Shown here one piece after another: positions 6,001 through 61,037 of a DNA stretch of 64,000 bases. Source of the DNA: Yuukianura sp. NJ FZ-2021. Taxonomy: Eukaryota. The stretch's first letter is position 1. The number at the start of each line of letters is the position of its first letter. The DNA is taken from NCBI GenBank assembly GCA_046563655.1, contig CM102284.1, positions 9,052,001-9,116,000 of the forward strand, in the 5' to 3' direction. The notes below the pieces were generated by a model. The model saw nothing but the letters and a program-made list of their open reading frames with translations, ran no database searches and had not been told where the DNA came from. Position numbers and translations under genes: made by a program.

Positions 6001-8957
6001 ACCGATGAAACAGGTACAAGATGATTATTTTTCCAAACGCATTGATTGTTTTTCTTAATTTCAGATTTCCACTTTCTATTTTTTTTAAACTCACCAATGC
6101 ACAGTTTCTGGTCCTGCGTCGGTATGAATCCGCGGTTACACAAGCAGTAGTATCCACTGGCCGTGTTGATGCATCGTCCATTGTTGCAAGTTCCGGGTTT
6201 TAGGCACTCATCTTCATCTTCACATGGACCAGAAGTGCCGTCCCTCGGAATCTGTCCAGGGGGACACTCACACTTGAACCCCCCGGGACTATTGACACAT
6301 CTCCCCCCTTCACAGATTCCCGGAATAGCTTCACATTCGTCCACGTCAATACAGGCTCCAGAGTGGACGTTCTTGAGGTAACCATGGTCACAGTCCAATG
6401 TACTTGGACAGGGTTCACACGGGTGACCCCACGCTTTGCCCACAGTAGCACAGCACAAGTTCCGAGTACACACGACTCCCAGCAGTTGACCTCCGCAAGT
6501 ACTTCCGCTTGTCTTCGTGTAACAAGGACCAGTACGGTAGTCTAAAACCAAAAAAAGAAACAAAAATTAGCATTTTCAGGTCAAAATTCTTAAACTCTTT
6601 TAACAATTTAATAAATTATTGATAATTTTCTACTTTTGGCATAATTTGAGTGTTTCTGGTTGCAAATTTATTGCCAAAATCCATTAGAGCTTGACATTTT
6701 TTGAATCTTTGGAAATTGAAGTTGGTCATTTGTACATAATTGCCAAAAGCACTTTAACTTTTAAATTTGAAATCCAACTTTGCATATCCGCTGCTCTTTT
6801 GATAAATTGGGTAACACTTAATTGCAGATTAATCGTCAATAGCTTTTAAGGGTATTGAGATTTGCAGATTCCGCCTTTTTAGGCTAAATCATTTTGCAGA
6901 TTAAGTTCGAATCTGTTGAGGTCATTGATCTTAAAATGCTCTTTCGCAAAGGTGCGGTGCGTGAGAGATGATCTTTCTGGAATTTGAATTTGATACAAAA
7001 TGAAAAAAATGAAGTTCAGTGAACCTGGAAAACTCAAAGACGAGTTTACAGAGTCACGTTTTAGTTTAAAAGACTTTGGACAATTTCCGTGTCCGTTTGT
7101 AAGATAACAAATTGGTTGAAGATGGATAGTGAGTTATGTAATCTGGACTCTCCTGTAATTCATGGTTCATCCCACTTAATTCCATGTTTACATTTTCACC
7201 TAATGCACGTTGACCGTAATCCGCAAATAAATCACTTCATCTTGTCTTTCGAAGAACAAAAAAAAATCAAAAAACTCACCAGATTCACAGCGTCTGCCTG
7301 TGTAGCCGTACACACCTGAAAACAAACAGAATTTTCATGAAAATTAACAAAAAAAAAGTTTTAAATATTTGAATTTTTGTTATTTGTTTGTCCTTTTTTT
7401 TCGAAAGCTTTTCTTTTCTAAAATACTAATTTCTGAAGACAGACTAAATGCTAACTTGTTTCAAAACCCAGAAGTCTAAAATCTATACAAAATCTGAATT
7501 TTGGCTAACGTACATGCGCAACGATCCGGTCCGATGCAGCGTCCAGCATTTAAACACGGTTCACGACAAACGGCTGTAAATTAACAAGAAAAATAGCATA
7601 ATTTCTTCAGATTTTGGTAATTTTTGGAATTTTTGAAGAGTTTGCGTACGTTCTCCGCAGAATTCTCCTTGAAATCCGGATTTGCAAACACATTTGGCAT
7701 TAACACAAGTTCCGCCGTTTAGACAAGGAACTCGACAGCCTCCGTTGGCCATTCCAGTGGAACTCTGTCCGTTTCCTGGACCTTGACCTGGTCGTCGCCC
7801 ATCTGAAACACACGCGAATGTAAAATTTTACGTAAATTGTAACTTGACAACCGCAGTTGATCGAAATTTTGGGAATTACCTCGAGTATCAGAACAGTTTG
7901 AGGCTACAGTTCCACCGTCACAGAGACAAATATTGGGTTTGACACATCGACCAGCTCCACAAGGACGACAAATTGCTACAACAAAAACATAAATTACTAT
8001 TAATTGATTACTTAATTGGATTCTTGTTTTAAGGAAACATAGGGCTTACGAATGACACAGAGTCCCGAACCGGGTTTCTGAGTCCATCCTGGACAACAAT
8101 ACGTTTTGTGACGAGATCTGCAGACATTCGGCCTGCAAAAAAAGTAGCAACATGGATAAATTAGCAAAAATTTTGCAAAAAAGTTTTGTAACCAGGCTAA
8201 TTCAAGACAGGAGGTCAACGACTTGTGACATGCAAAATAAGTGCAACTCCTAAGTTGACAAACCCTATCTTATCAAACTCCATTGTTCGGTTCCTTTACC
8301 CTCTCAATTCTTGTGTCCAAAAACTTCCACAATTTCCAAAACTAATTTGCCAGTCATCATGTCAACTTTGGGAAACACAACATGAGGAATCCTAATTCAT
8401 TGTACATGATTTTGCAAGAGTGACGACAGAACTTGGTCTGGTGCCCCTGACATACTCCATCGAGGTCAGAGGTCACGGTGTCAACATGAAGGAAGAGACA
8501 AGTACATAACGAATGAATCGCTTAAGTTTTGACCACCAACAAGTCATGGACCCATGGCGAATGTCTACTGATAATCACATAGACATAACCTTCAACTTCA
8601 CCCCTTTCATGAAATGACTCTCCCTCTGAACTAATTGATTAACACTGCCAATTTAACTCACATTCATCCAATTAATTAATCAACCAAAATACTAAGCAAA
8701 TCAACTTAAAATGCTTACCCTCCTACAGGGGCTGTCAAGAGCTGTGTCTGCTGAACTTGGTTTCCATTTTGATCGGATCCAGAAGAACTTGATGAATCCA
8801 GGAAATTGGCTTGAGACGATCGTTGATCGTTCCGTCCAGGACCATTGATGTGTCCATTTTGATGTATACTGGACACTGACAACTGAACCAAGAAACTACA
8901 ACATGTAAACAGGGACACTAACACTTTCAACTTCTGAGTTCTCATTGTCCTAACCAT
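1..8957 (-). CDS. FBN: Fibrillin (multi-exon; 5' portion only, continues past the left edge)
   Basis: Signal peptide ([22 protein letters not shown]); fibrillin N-terminal motif [20 protein letters not shown] repeats; many cbEGF repeats (DIDEC/DVNEC...C.NT.GSF.C.C); 8-Cys TB/hybrid domains ([52 protein letters not shown]). GT-AG introns. Confidence 0.92.
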
Positions 8958-41892: not shown

Positions 41893-44800
41893 TCAATCAC
41901 GCTCTCGCCTTCTTCTTTTGCTAACCGGCGGCTCATCATCCGAATCTAGACTTCCTTCCTAAAAACACAAAATTCAACCAATCAAATGACTCCAAAAGTT
42001 CCAGGTCCAGCCAATTACTAATTAGTAATTAATTACCTGTGACTCTGGATGCTGAATGCTATCCGACCCACGTCTCCTTCCAGTTGATTCTACCTCTTCA
42101 TACTCTTCCTCAAAATTGTTTTTCTGAATACTGTCTTCGAGAATTGCCAAAGTATCGTCAAATTCCTCTACAAGAGCTCGCGTAAAGTGCAGAAGTTGGA
42201 GTCCCTGCTTGGTCACTGAATGATCTGGACCATTGAAATGAAGCGTATTCTGATGAATCAGTTCAACATCTGCCAGGAACTGAGCACGACTCAAGTAGCG
42301 ACCATCTAAAAACAGATAACCAAAACAAAAAACTCAAAAAATTCTCCAAAATTTTTGAAAATTCAATCCTTCACTCACGGTTTATCCGTTTTTCAATTGC
42401 TTGCAAATCCATTGGACTCGTAATCACTTCATAGTAGTTTTCTACCAACTTCTTGTTCACGGGTTTCAAAAAATTGAGAGCCTCTGGAGCAATTTTGACT
42501 TTTTCTATGATTTGTTTCAGAATGTAGTTCATCCTTGTCTGTAAACCATAAAAAAAAAGCAATCAGAGATCAATAATTTTGAAAATTTAAAAATTTTGAA
42601 AATCTAACCTTGTCATTCTCATCCAAAAGTGGATTAATTTGCTTCTCCAATTTCCAAATCTCGGCTTCCTTTTCCCTCAAGCGTGACTCTGCCATTTCAA
42701 ATAGCTTCAAGGCCAGAGTTGTCACATGATTATTTTCGCCTAAGACAAAGTAAAGTAAATCACACAAGTGTTAATTAATGAATTAATCGTAACTTATTTA
42801 CTATTTAAACTTACCGTTGTACAGTATGGAGTTATCCACAAGGAGTTTAAGGTCTTCATACAAGTCACTCCTCGTTTGATATCGTTTGTCTCTATTCTTT
42901 TCTCTCATTGTCTGGAGATCCATCGGCATTGACACAATATCGTGGTAACGTGGCACTTTAGGTCCAACTGGAAAATGGAATATTGACGACTCCGGGTGAT
43001 TTCTCAAGTCGTTGATGACACTTTCAAAGATATTGGACAGCACAACTTGAGGATCGATTCGTTTTCGATTGGCAATTCGACTTTTCCCTTCCAAGTAATC
43101 ACAGTGGTCTGCGACAGAACTTCGTTTCCGTTTCATCGCATCTTTCGGCACTTTTATCAGGAGTGACATTCGTTTTACGTGTTCCGTATGCTAAAACAAA
43201 CAAAACGTTTTTACACATTACTATAAAAACTAAAATATAAACTAAAAAAAACTTGCAATTTTTACTTACTTGGACCAGTTTAGCAGAAAGTTGGATTTTG
43301 GTTCCGTCGACTTTGACTAAATCTTCTTGCGGTTCGTCAATCAGCTGATGATTGGCCACTTCTTCTTCTTCCGTCATCGCAACGTTTATGGACGGAACGA
43401 CGTCATTGTTTTTCTCAAACTCTGGACATGCCTTGTTCGTCCTCATGTGACCAACTTGTCCACATGCTCCACACTTCACTTTCAGATCCGGCTTGACCTT
43501 GACCTTCCGTTTCTTCTGAATCGGCACTGGTCTTGGTGTGTACTCTCTCCCTTGCTTGCGCTTAATCCGTCTCAACTGCTCCTGAATCCTTCGTTTCTCC
43601 TTCTTCATCTCCTCTTTGGTGTCATTATCGAGTAGAGCAAACTGACGAATAAAGTTATCGTCCTTCGTTGTACGAATCCTCATGTAGATGTCGATTATCT
43701 GAGACTTTCGGACGATTTCATTTCGAGTGAATTCCTTCCCGTCTGGAGTTTTGTACCTCCTCTGAATTTTCAAAACACGGCCTGAAAAAATTAATGCGAA
43801 TTGCAGCGGGTCAATCTCGGAGAGATTATCTCTCAAACTTGGAAAAGGTCAGCGCTAGTCTAAATTTCGATTTGTAAATTACCGGGATGCATCGTAAGTC
43901 CAGTCAGTTTGTTATTATCCTCTTCATTCTGTTCTTTCTTCTTCTCATCATCTTTTCCATCGCCCATCAGCATCCGTTGAAGTTCTTTTCGTTCTGCCTC
44001 TTCCCGCTCATGACTCAACTGTGAACTTGTCTTCTTATTCGACAGCATCTTCTCAATGTTCTTCCCCATTTCTTCAATATTTTCTGTATCTTCTTCTTCT
44101 TCTTCCGAACTTCCACCCTCTTCATCAGTAGATAAGGCTTCTGAAGACTGAAGAATGCGATTCTGGAGCTCAAAGATCATCTGACACTCTTCTTTGTACC
44201 TAAAGTACAATTACCATTAACATTCATTAACCTTAGTAAATCAACATTTCAAATTATACTTTCCTTTCAATTCCTGAATTACCTTTCCTGGTGACCAGCC
44301 ACCGAGAACTTATTCCCTCTCGAGAATTTCGTCATTCCTTCTTCTCCAGCTTTCGCCTTTTCAGTTGACAATGTCCGAACCACGTCAATTACTTCCCACC
44401 GAGACAGTTTTTGAATCTGCAAGAAAATCAACATCTAAATACTGGAATACTAGCAAGCATTTCAACTTGATTATTTTAGATAACTGGTAAGTATTTCAAC
44501 TTGATTATCTTAGCATTACCTCCTCTTCCGGTACTCCGAACTTCCGTAGCAGTGCTTTGGCATTATTCAAGGAAAGTCGACGTAGATCAGCATCCGTTCC
44601 GGTCACGATTCGCTTCGGTTGTGTTTCTTTTTCTTCCACTGTCGTCTGAAATGTCATTTTCATGTCAAATGTCACGATCAATTTTCGGTAATGGAATAAT
44701 ACTTGTGTAATTTTTTTTGAATGTTTCATACCTGTGGCTTGTTCGGCATTCTGATGTACGAAAATCCTTCGCCACATCCAGTTGGATCCGCCGGACCGTT

Positions 44801-47800
44801 GATTTGCAGAATACATTTCCCTCTCATGGCTTGGATGTAAGCTCTCGTCGTATTCCAAGGAGCCACTTTCACTTCATCGTCCAACTTCTTATCATCGTTC
44901 TCATCCTCATCTTCAGGCAAAGGAGCCAAAATACTTTGTGTCCCATAACCAGCATCCTAAAACATGAATCACAAGCATCAACTACTAAATTAGTCCTTTT
45001 CTGATTAATTTTATCTAAATTCTGTTTACCTTCAATCGCTGTTCCGCAGAGACAAGACTAAAATAAGCACAGCACTGCTCCGGCGAAACCATTGCTCGGA
45101 TTTCTTCTTCCGTTGGTAAACGGAACTCCGGTTTGAGCACCCACCAGTTGGAGTCAACTCCAGTTCGCTTAAAATCTGCACACAACTTGAGCCTCTTCCG
45201 GATGCTGCTTTCAGAATGGACTGGAAAGGCTTTCTTGATGTCGTCCATCCTGATTCTCCTTGGCGTGTCACGACTACTCCAGAACAGACGGTAAATGAAC
45301 ACCTTCACAACAATGTTCAAAAATTCAATAACGGATTTCTCAATTTTGAAAATAAAAATTTTTCAGTTTTGAAGAATTTCGAAAGTTCAAAGTTTACCTG
45401 AAGAAAGTCTCGGACGAAATTGTTGGCACGCTTAGAGTTTGGTCCTAAAAAGTTTCAGTTTTTAGTTCCCAGCAGACAAACTGGTTTCATTTTGTTACAA
45501 AGTCCAAGTTTACCTGGTACTTCGTACAGTGGACATTCTTGAGCAGCGGTGAAAATGGCTTCAAAAGTTCTTATGAAGAAGTTGTTTCTGCAATAATCAA
45601 CAAATTCATTAGGCTAGGTTCGTCATTTTCAATACTTAAAACTTGAAAACTTTAGTTCACAAAAAAAGCAAAAACTGTGAAATTACCGAGTGCGAATGAC
45701 TAGGAAATCGGTTGGACGTACTTCATGAGAGAAAATGGCGGATCTGTACATATTATTTTCAATAGTTTGTATCATTTGTCCAGCGTGCATAGCTCCAAGA
45801 AATGGAGAAGTATGAGCAATCACAGTTTCCCCAAGTTTCATCTCCTGTTCCGGTCCTTCATCTTTGGTACTTTTCCTTTTGTAGTAATTCTTAATTTTCG
45901 AACACATTCCCACCTAAAAGTGAAAAGCACAGTACTTTTGTCAAAGTTTGCCTTAAAAGTTCAAAATGCTTCGCCAATATGCTGTAACAGTATCTTACCT
46001 GATTGAGCAATGGTGGATGTTCTTCGCAGTATTCAATGAAAATCAGCTCCCCATCTTTTCCTGTAACGTCTTCCGCAGATCGCATGAAGAAGATGTCTCC
46101 TCCTCCAGCAGCTTGCCTCTCGTCTTCCTTTTCCTACAAAATTTGCAAATTTTTCAGCATCTTTAGAAATTCAAAAAATTTTCAAAAATTCAAACATTTT
46201 TGAAACTATAGTTAAAAAATGACTTACTTTTAGTTTCATTGCGATGTAACTGGTAAGGGAGAACAGTATGTGCGGACCAGGATGAGACAGTGGACCATTT
46301 GAGAACTTCCTAAGCGGCGGTCTATGGAAGTTTCGCATCTTGGCTAAACTCATATGAGTAGGTATGAAGGGCGCACGGAGCTCAACTACTGGAGTAGAAT
46401 GCTGGATGATGTTGCCACTAGCACTGATTTTGATATGTGCTTGCTCATTGTGCTTCGCTTGATAAAACTCATCCAGAGACAGATTGTAGGGATCCTTGTC
46501 ATCATCTTTGGGTGAAGGTGGAGGACTATCTTGTTCAATTACATTGATTACTCCTGCTTTTCCTAGCAGAATCTTGGACTTCTTTACATGTGGATGTGGA
46601 ATCTTGATTTTGACTGGAGGCGCCGTACTATGCGATGCTGTTGGATCAATGTCTTCTGGTTGACATAGAATGATATTCTCATCGTTTGGATCCAATTCCA
46701 GTACTTTTGGTTCTGGCAACTCCTCTACATTGTCAACGTCCCAAATGATATCTTTCTCCCAATGTCCATTCACGAGTTCAGTCGTCTCAATTGGAAAAAT
46801 GGAGTACCAAGTGTCATCCACTTGAGCATGTCCATCGTCAGCACTTTTGAGCCTGCCAACAACCCATTACTAATTAAAAATCACAACGAAATGAAAACCT
46901 TTGTAAAATTTGAGATGACCTTGACCTTACCCCTTGAGGCCTTTGACAGGTCCAGGCTTTCCAGGAGTACTTTTCATACTGGCAGTCTTGGGAGTGTGAA
47001 ACATTGAAGGAATTTCGGCTGATGATCGGCCAGTATTTTGTACTGAGCGATTTGAGCCACTCGGAACCCAGCCAGCAGTTTTACTTTTACAGAGTTTCTT
47101 CACTTCTGCATCTTGTCCATCCCAAATGATCGATTCTTCCCAGTCTATTTGTGTAACCATGTTGAAACAGTCGTCTGGAAAAACGTCTCGATCGGTTGGC
47201 CTCTTCTGGTTTGTTTCTTCGTCGGAACTTTCGTTTTCGGAATCCGTCTGTTTCTCCTATAAAAAAAAAGTACTGACGATGAAACTCTACATCTAGAAGC
47301 ACATGTTGCTTTTAGTTTTTGATTTCCAGTACTGATTACTCACCTTTTTGGTGAATCCATACTCAAAGTGTTCTGGATTTTCTGGAACGCCGAGCATTTC
47401 AAACCAAATGGCTGCAGGACCGTGCCTCCAAAGTTGTTTTTTGTCGGCACTGCTCTTGGGTATTCCAGAATCGCCTTCGTCTGAGCGCTCACTCCCGTCT
47501 TTCCCAGAAGAATCGTAGGCACGACAAAATATTTCCTATAAAACATAAAAAATCAAAGTACATAAAACATGAAAAAAATTCAAAATTTGGCTAAGAGTTT
47601 GTAGTGAAATGACAAAAGTCAAGAAATACCTCTTGATCAGGCAAACACGCCGAGGGATCTGCAACTTCTTCCTCTTCAAAGTGCACTGGCGAATCTAACC
47701 TCCCACTTTCAGTGTCACCAGCGTCAAAGGAAAGTGAACGCTGATTTGACGATCTTTCAGGTATCGCTGACGTTTCAGTCAGCACTGGCAGAGTAGGCGT

Positions 47801-48708
47801 AAATCCAGGTCCATTTTGTTCCTCCAGCATTTTTTCTTTCTTTTTCCTTCTTCTTTTCCTCACATTTCTCCAAATGTGTGGCAGATTGTTATATTTCCGG
47901 GTACCGAAGAGGCGCGAAAAGCGAAGGACTTGTCCCGGCCTGAAATCCGGAAACAAAGTGGTGACGCTAACGTTAGCGTACTTGGAGGGCAGAATTGATG
48001 CAAGCGGAGTGTCAAGTCTTCTGTCGTTACTAGCACCTGTTGCAGCGATTGAGTCTTCCCCTTGGCCAGAAATTGGTTTAGGGGGAGGAGGTGGTGGCAT
48101 CATGCGCTTGTCAAGGTCATAATCGCCAAATGTGGTCCTATATTCAAGCTCTTGGAAATTGTCGTCTTCAATACACTCGGAGATGTCGGAAAAGTCTACG
48201 GCTGTAGGTGACTTGACATCTCCGTCGTAATCGAGATCATTCAGGTTGTTGGTGACATGTTTCGACACTGAGCCGTTCATCTTGGTGACATTTCCTTCCG
48301 TGTCTTCATCTTCGGAAGAGTCATCTGAAGAGTCGTAAGACAATCGTAAGCGTCTCCTGGAACTTTTACCTAAAATATAACAAAGACATAACGTTAAAGT
48401 AATCGCTCACCTACAAAGTAATCAGTCTTAGTTAAATTTAGCTTACTGTGAGGACTGTCCGTTGTTCCATTTAGCCTACTTTCTCCAGTACTGTCACTAT
48501 CCACATTATCTTCATCGGCCAGTACTGTTTGAAATCTAACGCCTAGATTTTCTAAACCTTTGATCTGTTTGTCCGAGTCTGCACCGAAGATTGACTGATC
48601 CTCCAACTTTCCAGTTTTCGTATCAATATTTCCAAAGAGGAATCCAGTCAAACTAACTTGGGATCCTCCAGTTTCTTCATCGTCACTACTTCCACTGTTT
48701 GAACTCAT
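41893..48708 (-). CDS. TAF1: Transcription initiation factor TFIID subunit 1
   Basis: TAND-like [86 protein letters not shown]; zinc knuckle [17 protein letters not shown]; two bromodomains (PMDLQ...YNG and FNG). Confidence 0.97.
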
Positions 48709-49666: not shown

Positions 49667-52600
49667 ATGCTGACGAATCACGACACCAAAATGTCATCCA
49701 GAAGAGCTCCGATGCCAGTGAACCCCAATACTGGCAGTCAATCGTTTTTGGCAGGATCTTACGCCGCAGTGCACAAGAGCTTCTCTCAAAGTCAAAACCA
49801 CAATTACTCCTTTGTAAACGTAAATGGAAACAGACGTAGCGGTTCAGGAGGTGGCGTTCCACAGGTACTTTCATCATTTATGTTCCTCATTCAAATCAAA
49901 ATGCTGTTGAATCTAAATGACGACATGTTGGATTGGTTTGCATTTTTATTCGGATATACACCAGTTGTGGTTTTAGTTTTCAATTTTTATTGAAATAAGA
50001 CATGTTTGGATTGTTTAGTCCTTCAGCTCGACGATGGACAACTACTTGTTCCTGGAAGCCTCGTTGGTCAGAGACCTGCTGTTCATATTTCAAGGAATTG
50101 ATGGGAAATTTATTCGGCTCAATGACAAGAGCCGCAACTACGATCTCATTCAAGTAAGCTATAAAATCAACCAGATTCATGATTTTTATAAGGAAACAAC
50201 ACCCAGTAATCTGAGACTTCGTTTCTGTCCAGGACGTTCCCAGGCCGTTGCGGGAGCTGACACTGAAATTATGCGAAATCGGATACAATTACAACAGAGT
50301 CAAAGCGTTTCGAGATAAGCCCGGTGCGGGATTGATTACACATGCATTCAAACATGGAATCGACGGAGAACTTCACAATTACTACCGAATCCTGGCCGAC
50401 ATCAAAGCAAATGTAATTTCATAATAATCGTTTTTTCATTTCTCATTTTAAAGCAATGTTAAACTTTTCGTGGTTTATTTTGACAAAGATTCAGGACGCA
50501 ACTTTTGACACTCCTTTGTCAGAGGAGTTCAAGTCACGAGAGAAGATGACTCTAATCAAACTGGGAATCTGGATGGGTGATGTTCGATCGAGACTAGAAG
50601 CCCTAGCGTGCATAGTTGACGCTTGTGCACCAGTGGATTCTTCTGGAGCAAACCAACAGAAGCATGGCGGAGAATGCTGTTCCGTTGTGTTCTTGTTCAC
50701 GGAACACGGAGATCCGTTGATCAAGTCCATAGCTGTTAGCTTACTCACGACTTTAACAAAACCCCTGTATCTTATTCTTGGACAATGGATTTTGTATGGA
50801 GAACTGGAGGATCCCTATAATGAATTCTTCATCTTCGCTGATAAAGACTGCAAAAAGGAGGATCTTTGGCACTCTAAGTTTCACATCAGGTGAGCAAGAA
50901 TTTAGATTTGGAATTGCGATTGGTAGAATCATTGAACGTTTCTTTTTCTTTACAGAGAGAAGATGCTGCCGTCATTTATTTCAATGAAGCACGCCAAAAT
51001 TATACTAGCGACTGGCAAAAACATCAATTTCCTTCGAGACATTTGCAATAATTCAACTGCTTACAAAGGCAGAGCTGAAATCAAGAAAATGATCGAGGAA
51101 ACGCCAGGTATTAAAAAAATGTGCAATTTTCTATTAAATGTAGTTGATCATGAATTGAATGCTTCTTCTTTTTGAATTTTCTATTTCAGTGGAGTGTCTT
51201 TTTCTTGGAAACGAAAAATTACTTGGAAAAACGATTTTGAAAGCGTATCGTACTACTTCTGACATGGTTCTCAAAGTACTCATGGAAGATGCTCGACTCA
51301 TCGACCACCTCAACGCACTCAAGAAGTATTTGCTCCTGGGACAGGGAGATTTCATCAGATACCTGCTGGAGTTGTTACAGTAAGCTATATTTTCCGATAA
51401 ATTTAGTGTAAAACCCGTTGAAAATAGTTTAAACTGCATGTTTTTGAAATTGCAGAGTTGAATTGGCAAAACCTTATGCTAAACTGTACCAGCACAATTT
51501 GTCAGCCATTTTGGAATCTGCGATTCGAGCTACCAATGCACAATTTGAAGATGAAGATATTCTGAGGCGCTTGGATACAAGGATTTTGTATGGAAATGAA
51601 AAAGAAACGGGGTGGGACGTTTTCTGCCTGGACTACAAAGCGGATGGACCAATCGGAACGGTACTATGAGATTTCAGAAAAATCACAAAACGATTAAATT
51701 CGAGTTTTTGAAAAAGTTTCATTTTTGACGTTTTGCAGGTTTTGAACGAAGACGTTATAGTAAAATACAATCAGCTGTTCAACACGTTGTGGCGGATAAA
51801 GCGAATTGAAGCGATGCTGTCCACTCTGTGGAAGAGTCAAACGACTCTCTTCAAGTACCAAAGATCCATGATGCCAGGTACTACTGGCAGCATGATGCTG
51901 GCAGCATCCAAATATTATTGTCGAAGCATTTCAGTTTTACTGTTTTCAATCGTTTTTAGAAATTGGTCCGGTTCTTCATCAGGTCCAGTTACTCATCCAA
52001 GAAATGATCCACTTCGTGCACCAAACTCAGTACTACATCATGTTCGAAGCGACAGAATGTGCTTGGAATTCGTTGATGGACGACGTAAAACATGAACTTT
52101 ACATCAAAAATTTTTTAGAAAAAGTTTCAAAATTTTATAAAAATTAATGCTTCTTGCTTCGTATTGTGTTTTAGGTCAAGAAAGCTACAGATTTGGACCA
52201 AGTTATAAAGGCCCATGAGGCCTTTTTGTCGACAATAATGAGCCGATCCTTACTGGACATCGGGAAGCGTGAACTTCTGAATCAGCTCCGTGCCATATTT
52301 GGGACAGTCTATAAATTGAGTGACTTCTTGACAAAGTTCGACGACCGAGTGGCCGTTGAAGTCATCAAGCGGAAGAAACTGAAGACTGTGGCAGTAGCAC
52401 AGAGGAAATTTTTTGAAGATTATATCGCACAAGCCAAGGGAGAAGTAGAGCAGCTTTATACTGTTACGCAAGTAAGCTTTTTAGACAAGTGCACTGCAGA
52501 TTTCTAAGAAGTGATTGATGGTTTACAATTGCATGTTTTGTTTTGTTTTATCTAGGATTTGGTCTATCGCTTCCTCATCGTTTTGAACGGTCAACAAGAT

Positions 52601-53366: not shown

Positions 53367-54253
53367 TTATGGTAAGAAATTGAATTGATTGGCAGCAGCT
53401 ACTGTTCGCGTTACAGTGGCAGTATCTCGCGAAGTTTGGTCAATTCGGTATACTTCTCCAGTATTTGCGTTGCGGTACTGCCGAACTGGCCAGCCCTGGG
53501 CAGTGAACCCTGTCACTGTAACTGTGACGGTCTGGGTCGATGAAGTTGCCGTGTTAAGGGGTGGAGCTGACGGACCGTACAGCGCAGTACTTCCGCCTAA
53601 ATCAAAAAAATACTGTCAATACTGCTGACCAAATTCCAATAGACCGCTGAATGCTGGTGCTTTTATTTTACCTGGGTTGTAGTAGTTAATGGGATTTGTA
53701 CCGGCGGGGTACCTAAACCGCAGGAGAGTGAAACGCTAGATCAGAATTTTCGCGAATTCGCGAGTTTTAATTCGCGAATTTGAATTTTTGCGCCAAAGAC
53801 TTACATGTTCGGTCGTGTTGGTGCGTTGAAGAAAATGGTTGCAGCGGTGTCGTAGGTGACGAAAGTGACGGTACTGCCGTAGAAACTACCGTACCGAATG
53901 ACAGTTTGCGGAGTAGTGTGTGTCATGACAGTTCCTGGAGCGACTACAATGACTCTGCCATTGGCGAAATTGACCGGAGTATTGGCAGCATATACTTCCG
54001 GATCAATACCGCCTCCATAAATTGTCGTCGCGACTGGAAATATTACGGTTGTAGCCGTTTGGAGTGTCATAGTGGCTCCTGCCGTGTAACGCAGCGTCAC
54101 TGCGGCAGAATTTGTAACAAATGTCCCCTGAGGGTAAATTGCTGTTTCGCCTGCCAAGAAATTATGGTTGGCAATCCACTGTTGACCTTTGACCTCTGAA
54201 AAACCAAAGGTCAGCAGTACTACTATACTTCCAAGTATTCTTATATTTGACAT
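53367..54253 (-). CDS. Secreted Thr/Ala/Val-rich, Cys-free protein of unknown family, 239 aa (exons 54253-53805, 53712-53672, 53596-53367)
   Basis: Signal peptide MSNIRILGSIVVLLTFGFSEVKG|QQ; two GT-AG introns keep the frame; TAA stop followed by minus-strand AATAAA near 53325. Confidence 0.78.
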
Positions 54254-54681
54254 GGTGATGCTGGAAACTTTGGAGACAAACTGACACAAGTTAAAATTGT
54301 GTAATTTGGGTTTAAAGGAGTGACCTTGCCAGTATCCTTCATTTTTTTGGAGAATAGTTGACAATTCAGCAAGTGTTTCCAGCACATGTGCCAGAAAGTT
54401 ATACAATTTGTGTACAAAATGTACTGGAAAAAATGTATTTTTTAGAAATTACATTATGAATTTTTCATTTTTTGTACAGTAATGTCCCTGCGTCAATCGT
54501 TGACGACAACCGAATTAGAATTGTTTACAATTCAATCAATATTCGAAAAAAAAAAAACAAGAATAACTGAATTTGAAAAAGGAAAACTTGTTTTTTGGGT
54601 TTGAGTTTTTGGATTTATGCTTGGATTCTTGATCTTTTGGCCTTGAGCAATCCAAATACAACTAAAAAGTGAAAAGTTGAC

Positions 54682-57131
54682 ATGGCCACGAGTAGTGCAC
54701 CGAGACCTCCTCAGGGTGGACCTGGAGATCCATCTCGTGTCCCGAATGCCCATGGACCGGACACTTTTGAAGCTCGATGGGCCGAGTACATTCACAGAAT
54801 CAAAGTTCATGAACTCCTTCGTGTCATGGAGGAAGAGCAAAAGAAACTTCAGGTAAACTCGAAATTCTAAAAAGAATCAGTAACTTGCAAAGTTTTAGAA
54901 ATTTTGGAAATTAATTTGAGATTTTGTGATTTGCAGAGTCTTCGAGAACAAACTGACGTGGGTGACCTTCTGTTGGGGATGAAATACTTGGACGATGAGA
55001 ACATGACTGAAGAGGAACAAAACAAAATACTTTTTATGAAAACACTGGAAGAGGAGAAGCAAGAAGTGCTGGAGCTTGCGCAGGAGTCACGACACAACTC
55101 TAAAGACCCAGAATTCGTTTCTAAGAGTGCTCTCAGACTCTTCAAAACGCGTGTCCACATTTCCGATGAACAATTTGAACTTATACTTTCGCTCTGTCGG
55201 GTAATTGACTTTCAAACTTTTTAGAAAACCGACATTTTCGGACTGATTTTCTAGAATTTACTTTTTGTTTTGTGTTTAGGATCGAATGGAGCAGAAGCAA
55301 CTGCGTGACGCCTTTTTGGAAAAGAAGCACCGTGACAAGTACTTGCATAATGCTGGCGAGGAGCGTCGGATGCTCTACGAATTCCTGAACAGCGGAACAT
55401 TCAACCGGATGATGCTGATTCTCATTGCACTCAGCACAGTCATCATCATTCTACTCACAATTGAAGAAATTGCAGTCAGATACTGTAAGAACTGACCTTT
55501 GACCTTGAAATTTTGAAATCTGAATTTGAAGTTTAACATTTTGAAAACTTTTTTTTTGTCATTGTGTAGCCTACCCACTGATGATTATCGACGCATTGAT
55601 TGTTTGCGTTTTTGTGATTGAAGCTGGCGCCAAAATAACATTGTACAAAGAAGACTATTTTCGGAACCTCTGGAACGTCTTGGATCTTATCATCATCTTA
55701 ACCTACTTTCTGGAAATTATAGTGGACTTGATTACCAAAATGCTGGCGCTGAACGCTGAAATTGGGGGATTCCTCATTTTCAAGTTCTTCAAATCTCTAC
55801 GTTCCTTACGACTTCTCCGTGCAATCAAGTAGGTTTTCAAGATCCAAAAATTCCGAAATCGGAGTTATATGAAAACAAATTTGACCTTTGACCTTAATGT
55901 TTTCAGGTTTTTGCCGAATCTACAAGTTATTGTGAGTACAATTTTTCAATCTCTGCTTTCGCTCGGATCAATTGCAGTGCTCATGGGCCTCTTCATGTGT
56001 AAGCGATTTGCATGTTTTTTTAAATTTTACCAAAATTTTTAACTTTGATTTATTCAGTATTTTTTTTTCAGTTTTGTTTGCTATCATCGGACGTGGATTT
56101 TTCAGTGAAAATGATCCGATTCACTTTGGGAATTTATGGAGAGCAATTCTGACGTTGTTTCAGTTGTTGACGCTGGACGATTGGTTTGACATACTGGATG
56201 CTTCGGAGAGTGACAAGTACTGGGTCATGTTCTTCTACCTCTTCTTCTACATTGTCCTTGAAACATTCGTTTTTCTCAAGTACTTTTTAGAAATTTTTAG
56301 ACAAACTTTTCAAAAAACTGGGCCAAATCATATATATTTTTTTGATTTTGTAGCTTGTTCGTGGCCGTGTTGGTGGACAATTTTCAATTGGCGTTGAAAG
56401 ATGCAAGTGTTAGCGACTCTTCTAAACGAATTGACTTCTCGCAAGCATCTGAACTTGGTCTTGACACAGTAGAAGATGAAGAGGACATTGACGATGTTGT
56501 TATTGACACGAACACTGAAAAGGCTCGGCTTACGATTCCCAAAAAAACGAGTAAAAAAAAATGAAAATCAGTTTTTGAAATCTAATGTCCAAAAGTTAAT
56601 GCTGACCTTTGACCCTCAGATATTCGTCAACCCAAGGACCATCAGCATGGACTTGACCTGGAAGTGGACGATTATTACTCTCTAGATAAAAACTCAAAGT
56701 AAAAAACGTTTTCACTGTGAAAGTTGAATTTTGTGGTTCAATTTTGTTTTACTTTTTATTTTCAGAGAAGGGAAACTCATTACTGAAAACTTGAAACTCC
56801 TGAATTCGCTGGATTTTGAACATTTCATTTGGATTCGACGGATGAAGATACTGGCGACGATTATGGAAAAAGCAACGCTTTCAAAGGTATCGCAAGTTTA
56901 GTTAATTGTTAATGTCAAAAATTTGATCCATTGACCTTGTGCAGCAAAATACTTGGAATGTCCATGACAATGTGCCTGACCTTGGTCCGGATGACGGTAC
57001 GTTCTACGCAACCATGATTCGATACTTGCAGTTTTAATTTGTTTTGTTGTTAACAAATACTTCCAGATCGACATACCAAGTTCTCTTCGACTTACGAGCA
57101 GCAAGAACGAAATGAAGCGGATGATATTTGA
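54682..57131 (+). CDS. CATSPER1: CatSper1-like single-repeat 6-TM cation channel subunit
   Basis: S2-S3 YFRNLWNVLDLIII; S4 FKFFKSLRSLRLLRAIKFL; pore HFGNLWRAILTLFQLLTLDDW; S6 FVFLNLFVAVLVDNFQLAL; C-terminal helix KLITENLKLLNSLDFE. Only one repeat; spliced frame open to TGA 57129-57131. Confidence 0.8.
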
Positions 57132-57734: not shown

Positions 57735-58723
57735 ATGCCTGACAGAAGAGCAAAGAAATCAATCGACTTCAAAGAATCCAGCGACAGCGATGACGATATG
57801 GATACTTCCACGCCGGAAAAGGAAGATGGCGAAACTGCTGATGCAGATAATGACGAAGATAAGGATGACGAAGAGGAAGAAGAAGAGGAATTCACTGTTG
57901 AGGCCATCTTGAACAAACGAGTCACTGGAGGTGTGACCAAGTATCTCATCAAGTGGCAGGGATATAACGAGTAAGACATTTCAGATTCACGAATTATGAA
58001 AACTCAAAAGTTGTCGAAAACAACGACATTTTGATTTTTAAATTCTTTTAGGGATTACAATACGTGGGAACCAGCGGAAAACTTGTACTGTGACGAAATC
58101 CTGGAAGAATTTGAGCGAACTTGGAAAGAAAAACGAAGCGGAAAGGCAAAGGCCGGAAAAGCTGGTCCAAAGTCCAGTGCTGCTCACAGCAGTGCCAGTA
58201 CTTCCAAAAATTCAGCCACTGCTGGCACTCGAGCTTCGTCCACTACTGCTTCTGGCGGTGATGGGCAAACTCCCGAAGCTGATGATCTGGACCACTTTGA
58301 CGAAGATGGAAAGCAATCTGCAGGGTCTCTCTTTAGCAAGAAAACGAAACGGATAGATCTCAGGGTAATTTTGGCTAAAAACGTTTGAAATCGTTTCCTA
58401 GAATTCTAATAAAAAATCATTCTCGTGTTTAGCCTCAAGTGGAAGGCAAATCATATGGCCTTGATCGTGGACTGGAACCTCGCTACATCGTTGGGACTAT
58501 CGTGAATTCGAAAGGAAAGAAGTTCTTCCTCGTCATTTGGTACGACAATGACGAAGAGGGTGACATGGTTCCTGTGGATGAGTTCAGTGAAAAGTTTCCG
58601 GAGTTCACAATGTCGTATTTGGAAGGTCATCGCGTTTGGCTTCCAAGTCCAGACTATTATGATGACGAAGACGACCCTGGCACAATGGACACTGACACCT
58701 TAGCAGAAGTAACCACGCCGTAG
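57735..58723 (+). CDS. HP1/chromobox-family protein (chromodomain plus divergent chromoshadow domain)
   Basis: Acidic tract, then EFTVEAILNKRV...KYLIKWQGYNEEDYNTWEPAENLYC; basic/Ser hinge; GLDRGLEPRYIVG...FLVIW...EKFPEFTMSYLEGHRVW. Confidence 0.88.
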
Positions 58724-59653: not shown

Positions 59654-60653
59654 TTAGTTGCGTGCAGACTTCATTGCAGATGCCGGAGAGGAATTTTTGC
59701 GTTCCGGGAATCCAGGAGTGGACATGCGGCTCTTCCAGTTTCGAAACTGGTTGAAATCGTCGTAAGTCTGAGTAATACTTTGTGTTTGAAAACGTGTAAC
59801 TTTTATAGCCCGTCGATCTTCTCCAGTAATTTTTCCAATGAATCCGGCTCTACGCATCAGTGCATCAATCGTCTCCACTTTTGTCCAACCTGTCCAGAAA
59901 ACGAAGAAACTGTCAACATTTTTGAAGATACTTGTGCAGTATATTCCTTGCCTGTTCCAACTGCATACTCCGGCAGAAAATTGGCTTCTCGTCGCTTGTC
60001 CTTGTCCTTTCCACGTCCTTGAGGCAGTACCAACTGTAGTCCATGCACTCCAATAGTCCAATCCAGAAAATGCTTCCCTTCTTCAAAGTTCCAGAGCAGG
60101 GAGACTGTCACTTTCAGATCCGGAATCTCTTCGCTCTTAATCGGCTTGAAACGTTCGTCTTTCGTAGCACTGGATACGTAGGAATTTTGACATTTGACGT
60201 TGACCAGGTCAAAGCTTATGACTTTTTTCTTACCTAGAAACTGCAAATTCTCCAAGACCAGCCATGAGCGGCAGTGGATCGAAACTTCCAAGAGATCCAC
60301 GGATACCATCGTCATCATCCTTGAGAGTCCAAGTCACAAAAACCGGACTAATCAAAAACAAACCAAGACAAAAAGTCAAATGTCTCTGAAGTTTCGTTTT
60401 TGGATTCATAGGTCATCGGGGCTTACAAAGATACTGCTGGAAGGTCAACTGAAATTGTTGGAACCGTGTTCTTCAATGTAGAGATGAGGACATCGAAACA
60501 GTAGAAAGCCATTTCCGGAGTGACAATAGTTGGTTGTGGTTTTGGAGCAAAGATGTTCCAAATGTCAACCGATCCTGATCCTCGTGGTCCAAATCTGTCA
60601 CCAAATCGGACAGGAACTGATCTACGACGTCGAGGACGACTCGTGCTTGCCAT
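59654..60653 (-). CDS. AMMECR1-family protein (divergent)
   Basis: MAFYCFDVL, FPVFVTW, IRGSLGSF, SATKDERFKPI, VTVSLLWNFE, DWTIGVHGL, ANFLPEYA, GWTKVETIDALMRRAGF, IKVTRFQT. Confidence 0.88.
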
Positions 60654-61037
60654 TTTGAAGTACTCAAAAGTATCTCAGTAGTATTGGAAAGCTATTCAGC
60701 GGAAGTGCACCGCTACTGCTTGTAGCACCAGCAGAGGTCCTGCGTCAAGATCAGTTGGAAACCCAACTTCTTTTTGAAACTTATAGATAACTTCTTTTTG
60801 AGAAAACGTAAAAAACAAATAAATTTCGAAATTTTAACGAGGTTGCTACGCCATTTTTACTCTAAAGCGACATTTAGGTAATAGGCGATGAGTATTCCCT
60901 AAATTACTTGCATTTCTTAACATCCTATAGAGGTCAACGGGATCAGTTTACACGGCGCGTGTGCAGACACACGCTTACGTAAAAAGCGTGATCGGATTCT
61001 TCTGGTCAACACGCAAATCACGTGGTCGCGTCTATTA

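What the first reader, a model, noticed from the sequence alone, without database searches (positions are those of the whole stretch)
54682..57131. Intact CatSper1-like sperm calcium-channel subunit in a probable arthropod
Seen: a single 6-TM repeat with pore LLTLDDW (TLDDW at 56170-56184), S4 KSLRSLRLLR and S6 FLNLFVAVLVDNFQLAL. Established: TLDDW is the CatSper1 filter; CatSper is absent from Drosophila and C. elegans and patchy among protostomes. Inference: this lineage retains CatSper. The N-terminus is charged and helical, not His-rich as in mammalian CatSper1, suggesting different pH regulation.
Basis: partly seen in the sequence, partly recalled or inferred. Interest (0 to 1): 0.78.

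Follow-up and report, generated by a model that had tools for sequence, protein, structure and literature searches.

The report
Springtail CatSper1 sperm calcium-channel gene
This is an apparently intact gene for the CatSper1 pore subunit of the sperm calcium channel in what is likely a springtail; springtail CatSper1 and its histidine-poor front end are already in databases and in a 2026 paper, so the find is real but ordinary.

Summary
A predicted 11-exon gene (54682-57131, ten GT-AG introns) gives an open 570-aa protein with one 6-TM repeat and the stated motifs at the stated places. TLDDW alone does not prove CatSper1, since 23 bacterial-type channels among the hits carry it too. The tree does: the protein sits in the CatSper1 clade (100/98), beside Folsomia and Orchesella and sister to barnacles, and grouping with bacterial channels is rejected (p-AU 0.0002). 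A TAF1 tree places the host with springtails. The same genome holds CatSper2 (two copies), 3, 4, beta, EFCAB9, SLC9C and soluble adenylyl cyclase; gamma and delta searches were inconclusive. Novelty is low: Folsomia CatSper1 is named in RefSeq, a springtail CatSper4 EST was noted in 2008, and Orchesella cincta CatSper1 (2.6% His) is tabulated in PLoS Biol 2026. The His-poor N-terminus (3.6% here) is normal for invertebrates. One residual point is an acidic helical N-terminal stretch conserved among springtails only. Expression and function are untested.

The parts
54682..57131 (+). CatSper1 gene, predicted 11 exons, 570 aa, single copy as far as searched
   Evidence: splice model; tree; one strong match in G000
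54682..54852 (+). exon 1 (aa 1-57): Pro/Gly-rich start, then a helix shared with Folsomia (19 of 49 identical over aa 27-75)
54937..55200 (+). exon 2 (aa 58-145): acidic, charged N-terminal stretch conserved among springtails
55280..55484 (+). exon 3 (aa 146-213): charged helix, conserved HNA motif (His168), S0 and S1
55570..55828 (+). exon 4: S2, S3 and S4; S4 carries K285 K288 R291 R294 R297 (K300 spans the next intron)
55907..55998 (+). exon 5: S4-S5 linker and start of S5
56072..56279 (+). exon 6: end of S5, pore helices and first part of S6; best solved match mouse CatSper1
56170..56184 (+). selectivity filter TLDDW (aa 364-368)
56354..56550 (+). exon 7: end of S6 and acidic linker
56620..56698 (+). 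exon 8
56766..56886 (+). exon 9: C-terminal helix that aligns across CatSper1 proteins
56945..56996 (+). exon 10 (weakly conserved; splice signals only)
57067..57131 (+). exon 11 with stop codon (splice signals only)

Best explanation
This gene encodes the CatSper1 orthologue of a likely springtail, and its product would form one of the four pore subunits of a conventional CatSper calcium channel in the sperm tail. Shown: the open gene model, the orthology, and CatSper2 (two copies), CatSper3, CatSper4, CatSper-beta, EFCAB9, SLC9C and soluble adenylyl cyclase elsewhere in the genome. Inferred from mouse and sea urchin: CatSper1-4 assemble as a heterotetramer whose four filter aspartates (TLDDW, TLDKW, TMDGW, TQDGW here) select Ca2+; the six basic S4 residues of CatSper1 make it the main voltage sensor; SLC9C raises internal pH under control of voltage and cAMP from sAC; alkalinisation and depolarisation open the channel and Ca2+ changes the flagellar beat. 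pH sensing would run through EFCAB9 and the SLC9C/sAC loop as proposed for other invertebrates, not through a His-rich N-terminus. The gene was inherited vertically and lost in lineages such as Drosophila.
For: Pore exon: best solved matches are mouse CatSper1 chains 9ubw_A and 7eeb_A. Closest database proteins are springtail CatSper1: P0135 Folsomia E 2e-153, P0127 Orchesella dallaii E 2e-134, unnamed P0129 E 8e-154, against E 2e-35 for the best bacterial-type channel shown. Tree of 81 rows: CatSper1 clade 100/98, springtail-type clade 100/99, with barnacles 99/95; held together with the 15 bacterial-type rows it loses 97 log-likelihood units, p-AU 0.00018. A model of the Folsomia orthologue has 7eeb_A as top fold match. 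Host: TAF1 groups with Allacma and Orchesella, 100/100. Partners: CatSper2 pair, CatSper3, CatSper4 (best single-domain match), beta, EFCAB9, SLC9C with exchanger, voltage sensor and cNMP domain, sAC.
Against: No expression or physiology was seen. Searches for CatSper gamma (PF15064) and delta (PF15020) found nothing, though their controls also rang nowhere. Exon 4 alone matches Cav1 and Nav chains better than CatSper1 by whole-sequence score, because four repeats add up. The tree holds no mammalian CatSper1 and no CatSper2-4 from other species. Both CatSper2 copies have Lys where mouse has His next to the filter aspartate, which could alter permeation.
Confidence: 0.87

Rival explanations
1. 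True CatSper1 of a working sperm channel, but with a springtail-specific gating or coupling device: the conserved acidic helical N-terminal stretch would link neighbouring channels or bind a partner, replacing the His-based coupling proposed for mammals. This adds to the best explanation rather than replacing it.
For: Residues 85-175 are 40 of 91 identical to Folsomia and 29 of 91 to O. dallaii; springtail-type hits align from query residue 27-107, the other 27 of the first 30 hits only from 148 or later. The Folsomia model predicts helices there, pLDDT about 50-85. His168 is kept in all five springtail-type rows that cover it.
Against: No known family matches (Pfam; Atlas first hit 0.88, under its bar). 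Helical charged N-termini are common, and lineage-specific conservation is expected among close relatives. Nothing was measured.
Confidence: 0.25
2. CatSper1 by descent but used outside sperm, or in an incomplete or remodelled complex without the full extracellular canopy.
For: Gamma and delta were not found by my searches; Heliconius is reported to keep only two pore subunits (PMC6660944), so partial sets exist in arthropods.
Against: All four pore subunits, beta, EFCAB9, SLC9C and sAC are present together, the pattern that PMC6660944 ties to sperm flagella. An earlier scan note reports a delta/epsilon gene in this genome (not checked by me).
Confidence: 0.08
3. A bacterial-type or other single-domain channel (BacNav/BacCav-like, horizontally gained or contaminant) that merely shares TLDDW.
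For: 23 of 116 screened hits are bacterial-type channels with TLDDW, one named from Roseomonas.
Against: Ten spliceosomal introns, arthropod neighbours on a 9.3-Mb contig, AU test rejects the grouping, and branching follows the species tree.
Confidence: 0.01
4. A recent pseudogene whose frame has not yet decayed.
For: No direct sign of transcription was obtained.
Against: No stop or frameshift over 11 exons; end branch 0.22, equal to the tree's median; the partner genes' membrane regions also splice to open frames.
Confidence: 0.03

Closest known systems
Folsomia candida CatSper1 (P0135; XP_021949366.2, 612 aa) and Orchesella dallaii CAL8082978.1 (P0127, 585 aa)
   Same: Same architecture, TLDDW filter, six-charge S4, shared acidic N-terminal helices; 142 and 147 of 240 residues identical over aa 176-415.
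   Different: The query branches outside the Folsomia/Orchesella pair, has a shorter N-terminus than Folsomia (165 vs 220 aa) and a shorter pore-to-S6 loop.
Orchesella cincta CatSper1 in Table 1 of PMC13674862 (PLoS Biol 2026)
   Same: N-terminus 191 aa, 5 His, 2.6%, pI 5.3 against 165 aa, 6 His, 3.6%, pI 5.6 here at the same boundary.
   Different: Another species; that paper gives no functional data for springtails in the sections I read.
Mouse CatSper1 (7eeb_A, 9ubw_A)
   Same: Best solved match of the pore exon, same TLDDW; six basic S4 residues as the paper states for mouse.
   Different: Mouse N-terminus is 332 aa with 17% His; the query's is short, acidic and His-poor.
Barnacle CatSper1 (Pollicipes P0002, Amphibalanus P0004) and Limulus CatSper1 (P0144)
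   Same: Other arthropod orthologues, His-poor N-termini of 0.8-3.0%; barnacles are the sister group in the tree.
   Different: They lack the springtail N-terminal stretch and keep two more outer S4 arginines.
Bacterial single-domain channels with TLDDW (e.g. P0186, Roseomonas ion transporter)
   Same: One 6-TM repeat and the same five-residue filter.
   Different: About 280 aa, about 32% identity, separate clade 98/94.

Membership tests
CatSper1 (CatSper alpha subunit 1) | Single 6-TM voltage-gated channel repeat | tested here: met
   one Ion_trans repeat in 570 aa
CatSper1 (CatSper alpha subunit 1) | Filter with the key aspartate, TLDDW as in mouse CatSper1 | tested here: met
   necessary but not sufficient
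CatSper1 (CatSper alpha subunit 1) | Groups with named CatSper1 proteins, apart from CatSper2-4, TPC, Cav/Nav repeats and bacterial channels | tested here: met
   100/98; CatSper2-4 represented only by this genome's own paralogues
CatSper1 (CatSper alpha subunit 1) | S4 with about six basic residues at three-residue spacing | tested here: met
   K285 K288 R291 R294 R297 K300; mouse count from PMC13674862
CatSper1 (CatSper alpha subunit 1) | Long His-rich N-terminus (a trait of most placental mammals, not of the family as a whole) | tested here: not met
   3.6% His; invertebrates with N-termini over 60 aa in Table 1 of PMC13674862 lie at 2.6-5.8%, so absence does not exclude membership
CatSper channel complex | All four pore subunits in the genome (criterion of PMC6660944) | tested here: met
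   CatSper2 x2 at G000:C3:10.42 Mb, CatSper3 at C4:14.95 Mb, CatSper4 at C8:14.21 Mb
CatSper channel complex | Auxiliary subunit beta and EFCAB9 | tested here: met
   PF15149 over cut-off at C5:8.65 Mb; EFCAB9 best solved match at C2:4.25 Mb; only parts of each gene were examined
CatSper channel complex | Auxiliary subunits gamma, delta, epsilon | tested here: inconclusive
CatSper channel complex | Co-occurrence with SLC9C and soluble adenylyl cyclase | tested here: met
   SLC9C at C2:7.355 Mb (E 3.6e-78 to sea-urchin exchanger); sAC at C4:10.155 Mb (E 6e-31 to ADCY10)
CatSper channel complex | Testis/sperm-specific expression and flagellar localisation | not testable with these tools
CatSper channel complex | Alkalinisation- and voltage-gated Ca2+ current | not testable with these tools
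   needs sperm patch clamp or imaging
Bacterial Nav/Cav-like single-domain channels | Groups with bacterial 6-TM channels; intron-less, about 280 aa | tested here: not met
   p-AU 0.00018; ten introns, 570 aa

The most novel reading that the evidence does not exclude
Springtails are land hexapods that run the whole sea-urchin-type sperm module (CatSper1-4, beta, EFCAB9, SLC9C, sAC), and they have rebuilt its cytoplasmic face: CatSper1 carries an acidic helical N-terminal stretch found only in springtails that couples channels without histidines, and CatSper2 here has a fixed positive charge (TLDKW) beside the filter where mouse has a titratable His. That would give a culturable non-mammalian model for His-independent CatSper gating and for what flies lost.
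Probability: 0.2. Interest if true: 0.55.

Novelty: new member of a known kind. Interest (0 to 1): 0.24.

Why it matters
It adds one more springtail lineage to the known holders of CatSper1 and shows, in one genome, the four pore subunits together with beta, EFCAB9, SLC9C and sAC. That supports loss of the channel within hexapods after the split from springtails rather than absence from arthropods. In the text of PMC6660944 that I read, arthropods are cited only as partial holders (its Fig. 4 was not visible), so the full set in a hexapod may be under-reported. A specialist would not be surprised by the gene itself or by its His-poor N-terminus.

Tried and rejected
RNA check: no RNA holder was listed for the gene; this is no evidence either way. 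Profile search of the 50% representatives was swamped by four-repeat Cav/Nav proteins and gave no CatSper2-4 references; 6 of its 150 hits served as outgroups. CatSper3 was missed by a protein search with CatSper4 and by a DNA pattern because an intron splits its filter; it was found among the Ion_trans loci. PF15064 and PF15020 gave no match. The single-sequence fold of Folsomia CatSper1 was poor (pLDDT 44.6); the fold with 46 rows was used (72.4). Only the Folsomia orthologue was folded, not the query. Atlas search of the springtail N-terminal stretch gave nothing over its bar. Literature: CatSper+Collembola 0 papers, CatSper+Folsomia 1 off-topic listing, CatSper+springtail 4, CatSper+Orchesella 2; searches gave nothing usable. 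Rejected: TLDDW as proof of CatSper1; His-poor N-terminus as a special trait; bacterial origin.

Full report
Observation. The window DNA between 54682 and 57131 splices at ten GT-AG introns of 58-85 nt into 1713 nt, 570 codons and a stop. Pfam Ion_trans matches exons 4 and 6 over its cut-off and exon 5 weakly; 8 of the 11 exons were scanned. TLDDW appears once in the real window and twice in 100 shuffles. Searches of G000 with exon 6 and exon 2 each gave one strong match, the gene itself. The model has no RNA support; exons 10 and 11 rest on splice signals and an open frame alone.

Identity. The pore exon's best solved matches are mouse CatSper1 chains (E 7e-9 and 1.5e-8), ahead of Cav3, bacterial channels and CatSper3. 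Exon 4 by itself ranks Cav1 and Nav chains first, with CatSper1 at E 1.2e-5; four-repeat proteins sum their repeats there. A profile search listed 120 proteins. Against these the spliced protein scores best with an unnamed JGI protein, Folsomia candida CatSper1 and an Orchesella dallaii protein (E 1e-134 or better), then deuterostome and spiralian CatSper1 (about 1e-70 to 1e-57), and bacterial-type channels at 1e-35 or worse among the rows printed. The filter is not diagnostic: 23 of the 116 proteins screened are short bacterial-type channels with TLDDW.

Tree. 81 rows: the query, 50 of the 120 hits, the four repeats of 6 of the 150 four-repeat proteins (repeats of six more were dropped to save time), and this genome's CatSper2a, 2b, 3, 4 and two TPC pieces; 230 columns, LG+G4. 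CatSper1 forms one clade (100/98). The query lies in a five-row springtail-type clade (100/99), sister to barnacles (99/95). Forcing it together with the 15 bacterial-type rows is rejected (p-AU 0.00018); one unnamed row, P0181, was put in that group after the first quick tree. Limits: no mammalian CatSper1 and no foreign CatSper2-4 were available as rows, and CatSper3 and 4 are long branches. An AlphaFold2 model of the Folsomia orthologue (pLDDT 72.4, pTM 0.48) has mouse CatSper1 as top fold match, only slightly ahead of NavAb.

Host. G000 has 98.7 Mb in 22 contigs. The neighbouring TAF1 gene has Allacma fusca and Orchesella dallaii as best named hits. In a tree of 903 spliced residues with 33 of the 120 hits it joins them at 100/100, on a flagged long branch and with no named proturan or dipluran in the sample. 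A springtail is likely; the order is open.

The rest of the complex. CatSper2 is a tandem pair on C3 with filter TLDKW; its pore matches mouse CatSper2, which has His at that place. CatSper3 on C4 has TMDGW split by an intron and matches mouse CatSper3 best. CatSper4 on C8 has TQDGW; mouse CatSper4 is its best single-domain match (106 bits against 62 for CatSper2). PF15149 finds CatSper-beta on C5. EFCAB9 lies on C2. An SLC9C gene with exchanger, voltage sensor and cNMP domain lies on C2 and a soluble adenylyl cyclase on C4. Gamma and delta were not found, with silent controls. Only parts of these genes were examined. Earlier scan notes gave leads for CatSper3 and EFCAB9, which I confirmed, and for delta/epsilon and theta, which I did not check.

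N-terminus. With a boundary that reproduces the published lengths for sea urchin, Lingula and Nematostella, the query's N-terminus is 165 aa with 6 His (3.6%), pI 5.6; the 21 other rows give 0-5.8%, apart from two cnidarian stubs of 10-11 aa. PMC13674862 Table 1 gives Orchesella cincta 191 aa, 2.6%, pI 5.3 and shows high His mainly in placental mammals. What is particular is a stretch (aa 85-175) kept among springtails (40 of 91 identical to Folsomia, 29 of 91 to O. dallaii) and not aligned in other CatSper1 hits. It is predicted helical in Folsomia and matches no family.

Mechanism. Shown: gene, orthology, partner genes. Inferred from mouse and sea urchin as described in PMC6660944 and PMC13674862: a heterotetrameric Ca2+ pore in the sperm flagellum, CatSper1 as chief voltage sensor with six basic S4 residues, opened by depolarisation and by alkalinisation through SLC9C and sAC. 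That EFCAB9 is a pH-dependent Ca2+ sensor of the complex is recalled knowledge, not from a call. PMC12867704 reports that sea-urchin and salmon sAC are directly pH-activated; I did not check the matching residues here.

What is in print. PMC2572835 (passages) found the complex absent from the protostome genomes then sampled but noted a CatSper4-like EST in the springtail Onychiurus arcticus. PMC6660944 (parts 1-3 of 6, supplements 1 and 7, and a term search of its nine supplements) cites arthropods as mixed; its Fig. 4 is a picture that I could not see and may bear on whether a full arthropod set was reported. PMC13674862 (abstract, first part of section 6, sections 7, 9, 12, passages; supplements not read) lists O. 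cincta CatSper1. PMC11148248 and PMC12867704 were seen as passages only. RefSeq names Folsomia CatSper1. I found no paper on the springtail N-terminal stretch or on springtail CatSper function in searches; the library lacks most subscription journals.

Verdict. Real and correctly identified, a new member of a known kind, in a group already listed as holding the gene. Interest 0.24.

Noticed in passing
window 53367-54253, - strand: A Thr/Val/Ala-rich frame with a hydrophobic, signal-like start sits head to head with CatSper1 (start codons about 430 bases apart); no Pfam match for 53801-54448. Possibly a secreted protein sharing the promoter.
   Followed up: partly
L034:4150-5317 and 6938-8133 (G000:C3:10.42 Mb): Two tandem CatSper2 genes, both with TLDKW where mouse has TLDHW; how widespread the Lys is was not tested.
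   Followed up: partly
L071 (C5:5.31 Mb) and L073 (C6:0.51 Mb): Two more Na+/H+ exchanger loci followed by a weak cNMP-binding match, possibly extra SLC9C paralogues; voltage sensor not checked.
   Followed up: partly
L042:810-2300 and L036:6900-7900 (- strand): Long open frames upstream of the CatSper3 and CatSper4 membrane regions may be N-terminal extensions; not spliced out.
   Followed up: no
window 55493, 55882, 56603 and elsewhere: The 12-mer TGACCTTTGACC or its complement occurs 10 times in the window, three times in CatSper1 introns; it resembles a nuclear-receptor direct repeat (recalled label); not tested against shuffles.
   Followed up: no
P0183-P0236: A clade of bacterial single-domain channels naturally carries the TLDDW filter, one named from Roseomonas; candidates for native Ca2+-selective bacterial channels.
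   Followed up: partly
window 50417-50893, 57735-58723, 41900-48700: Neighbours: gamma-tubulin complex component (Pfam GCP_N_terminal), an HP1-like gene with chromo and weak chromo-shadow matches, and TAF1. The frames at 59654-60674 look like AMMECR1 (recalled; the one frame scanned gave no Pfam match).
   Followed up: partly
L093:2-2389: A 796-aa open frame that looks like a BEL/Pao retrotransposon pol (recalled label) lies just upstream of the sAC gene.
   Followed up: no
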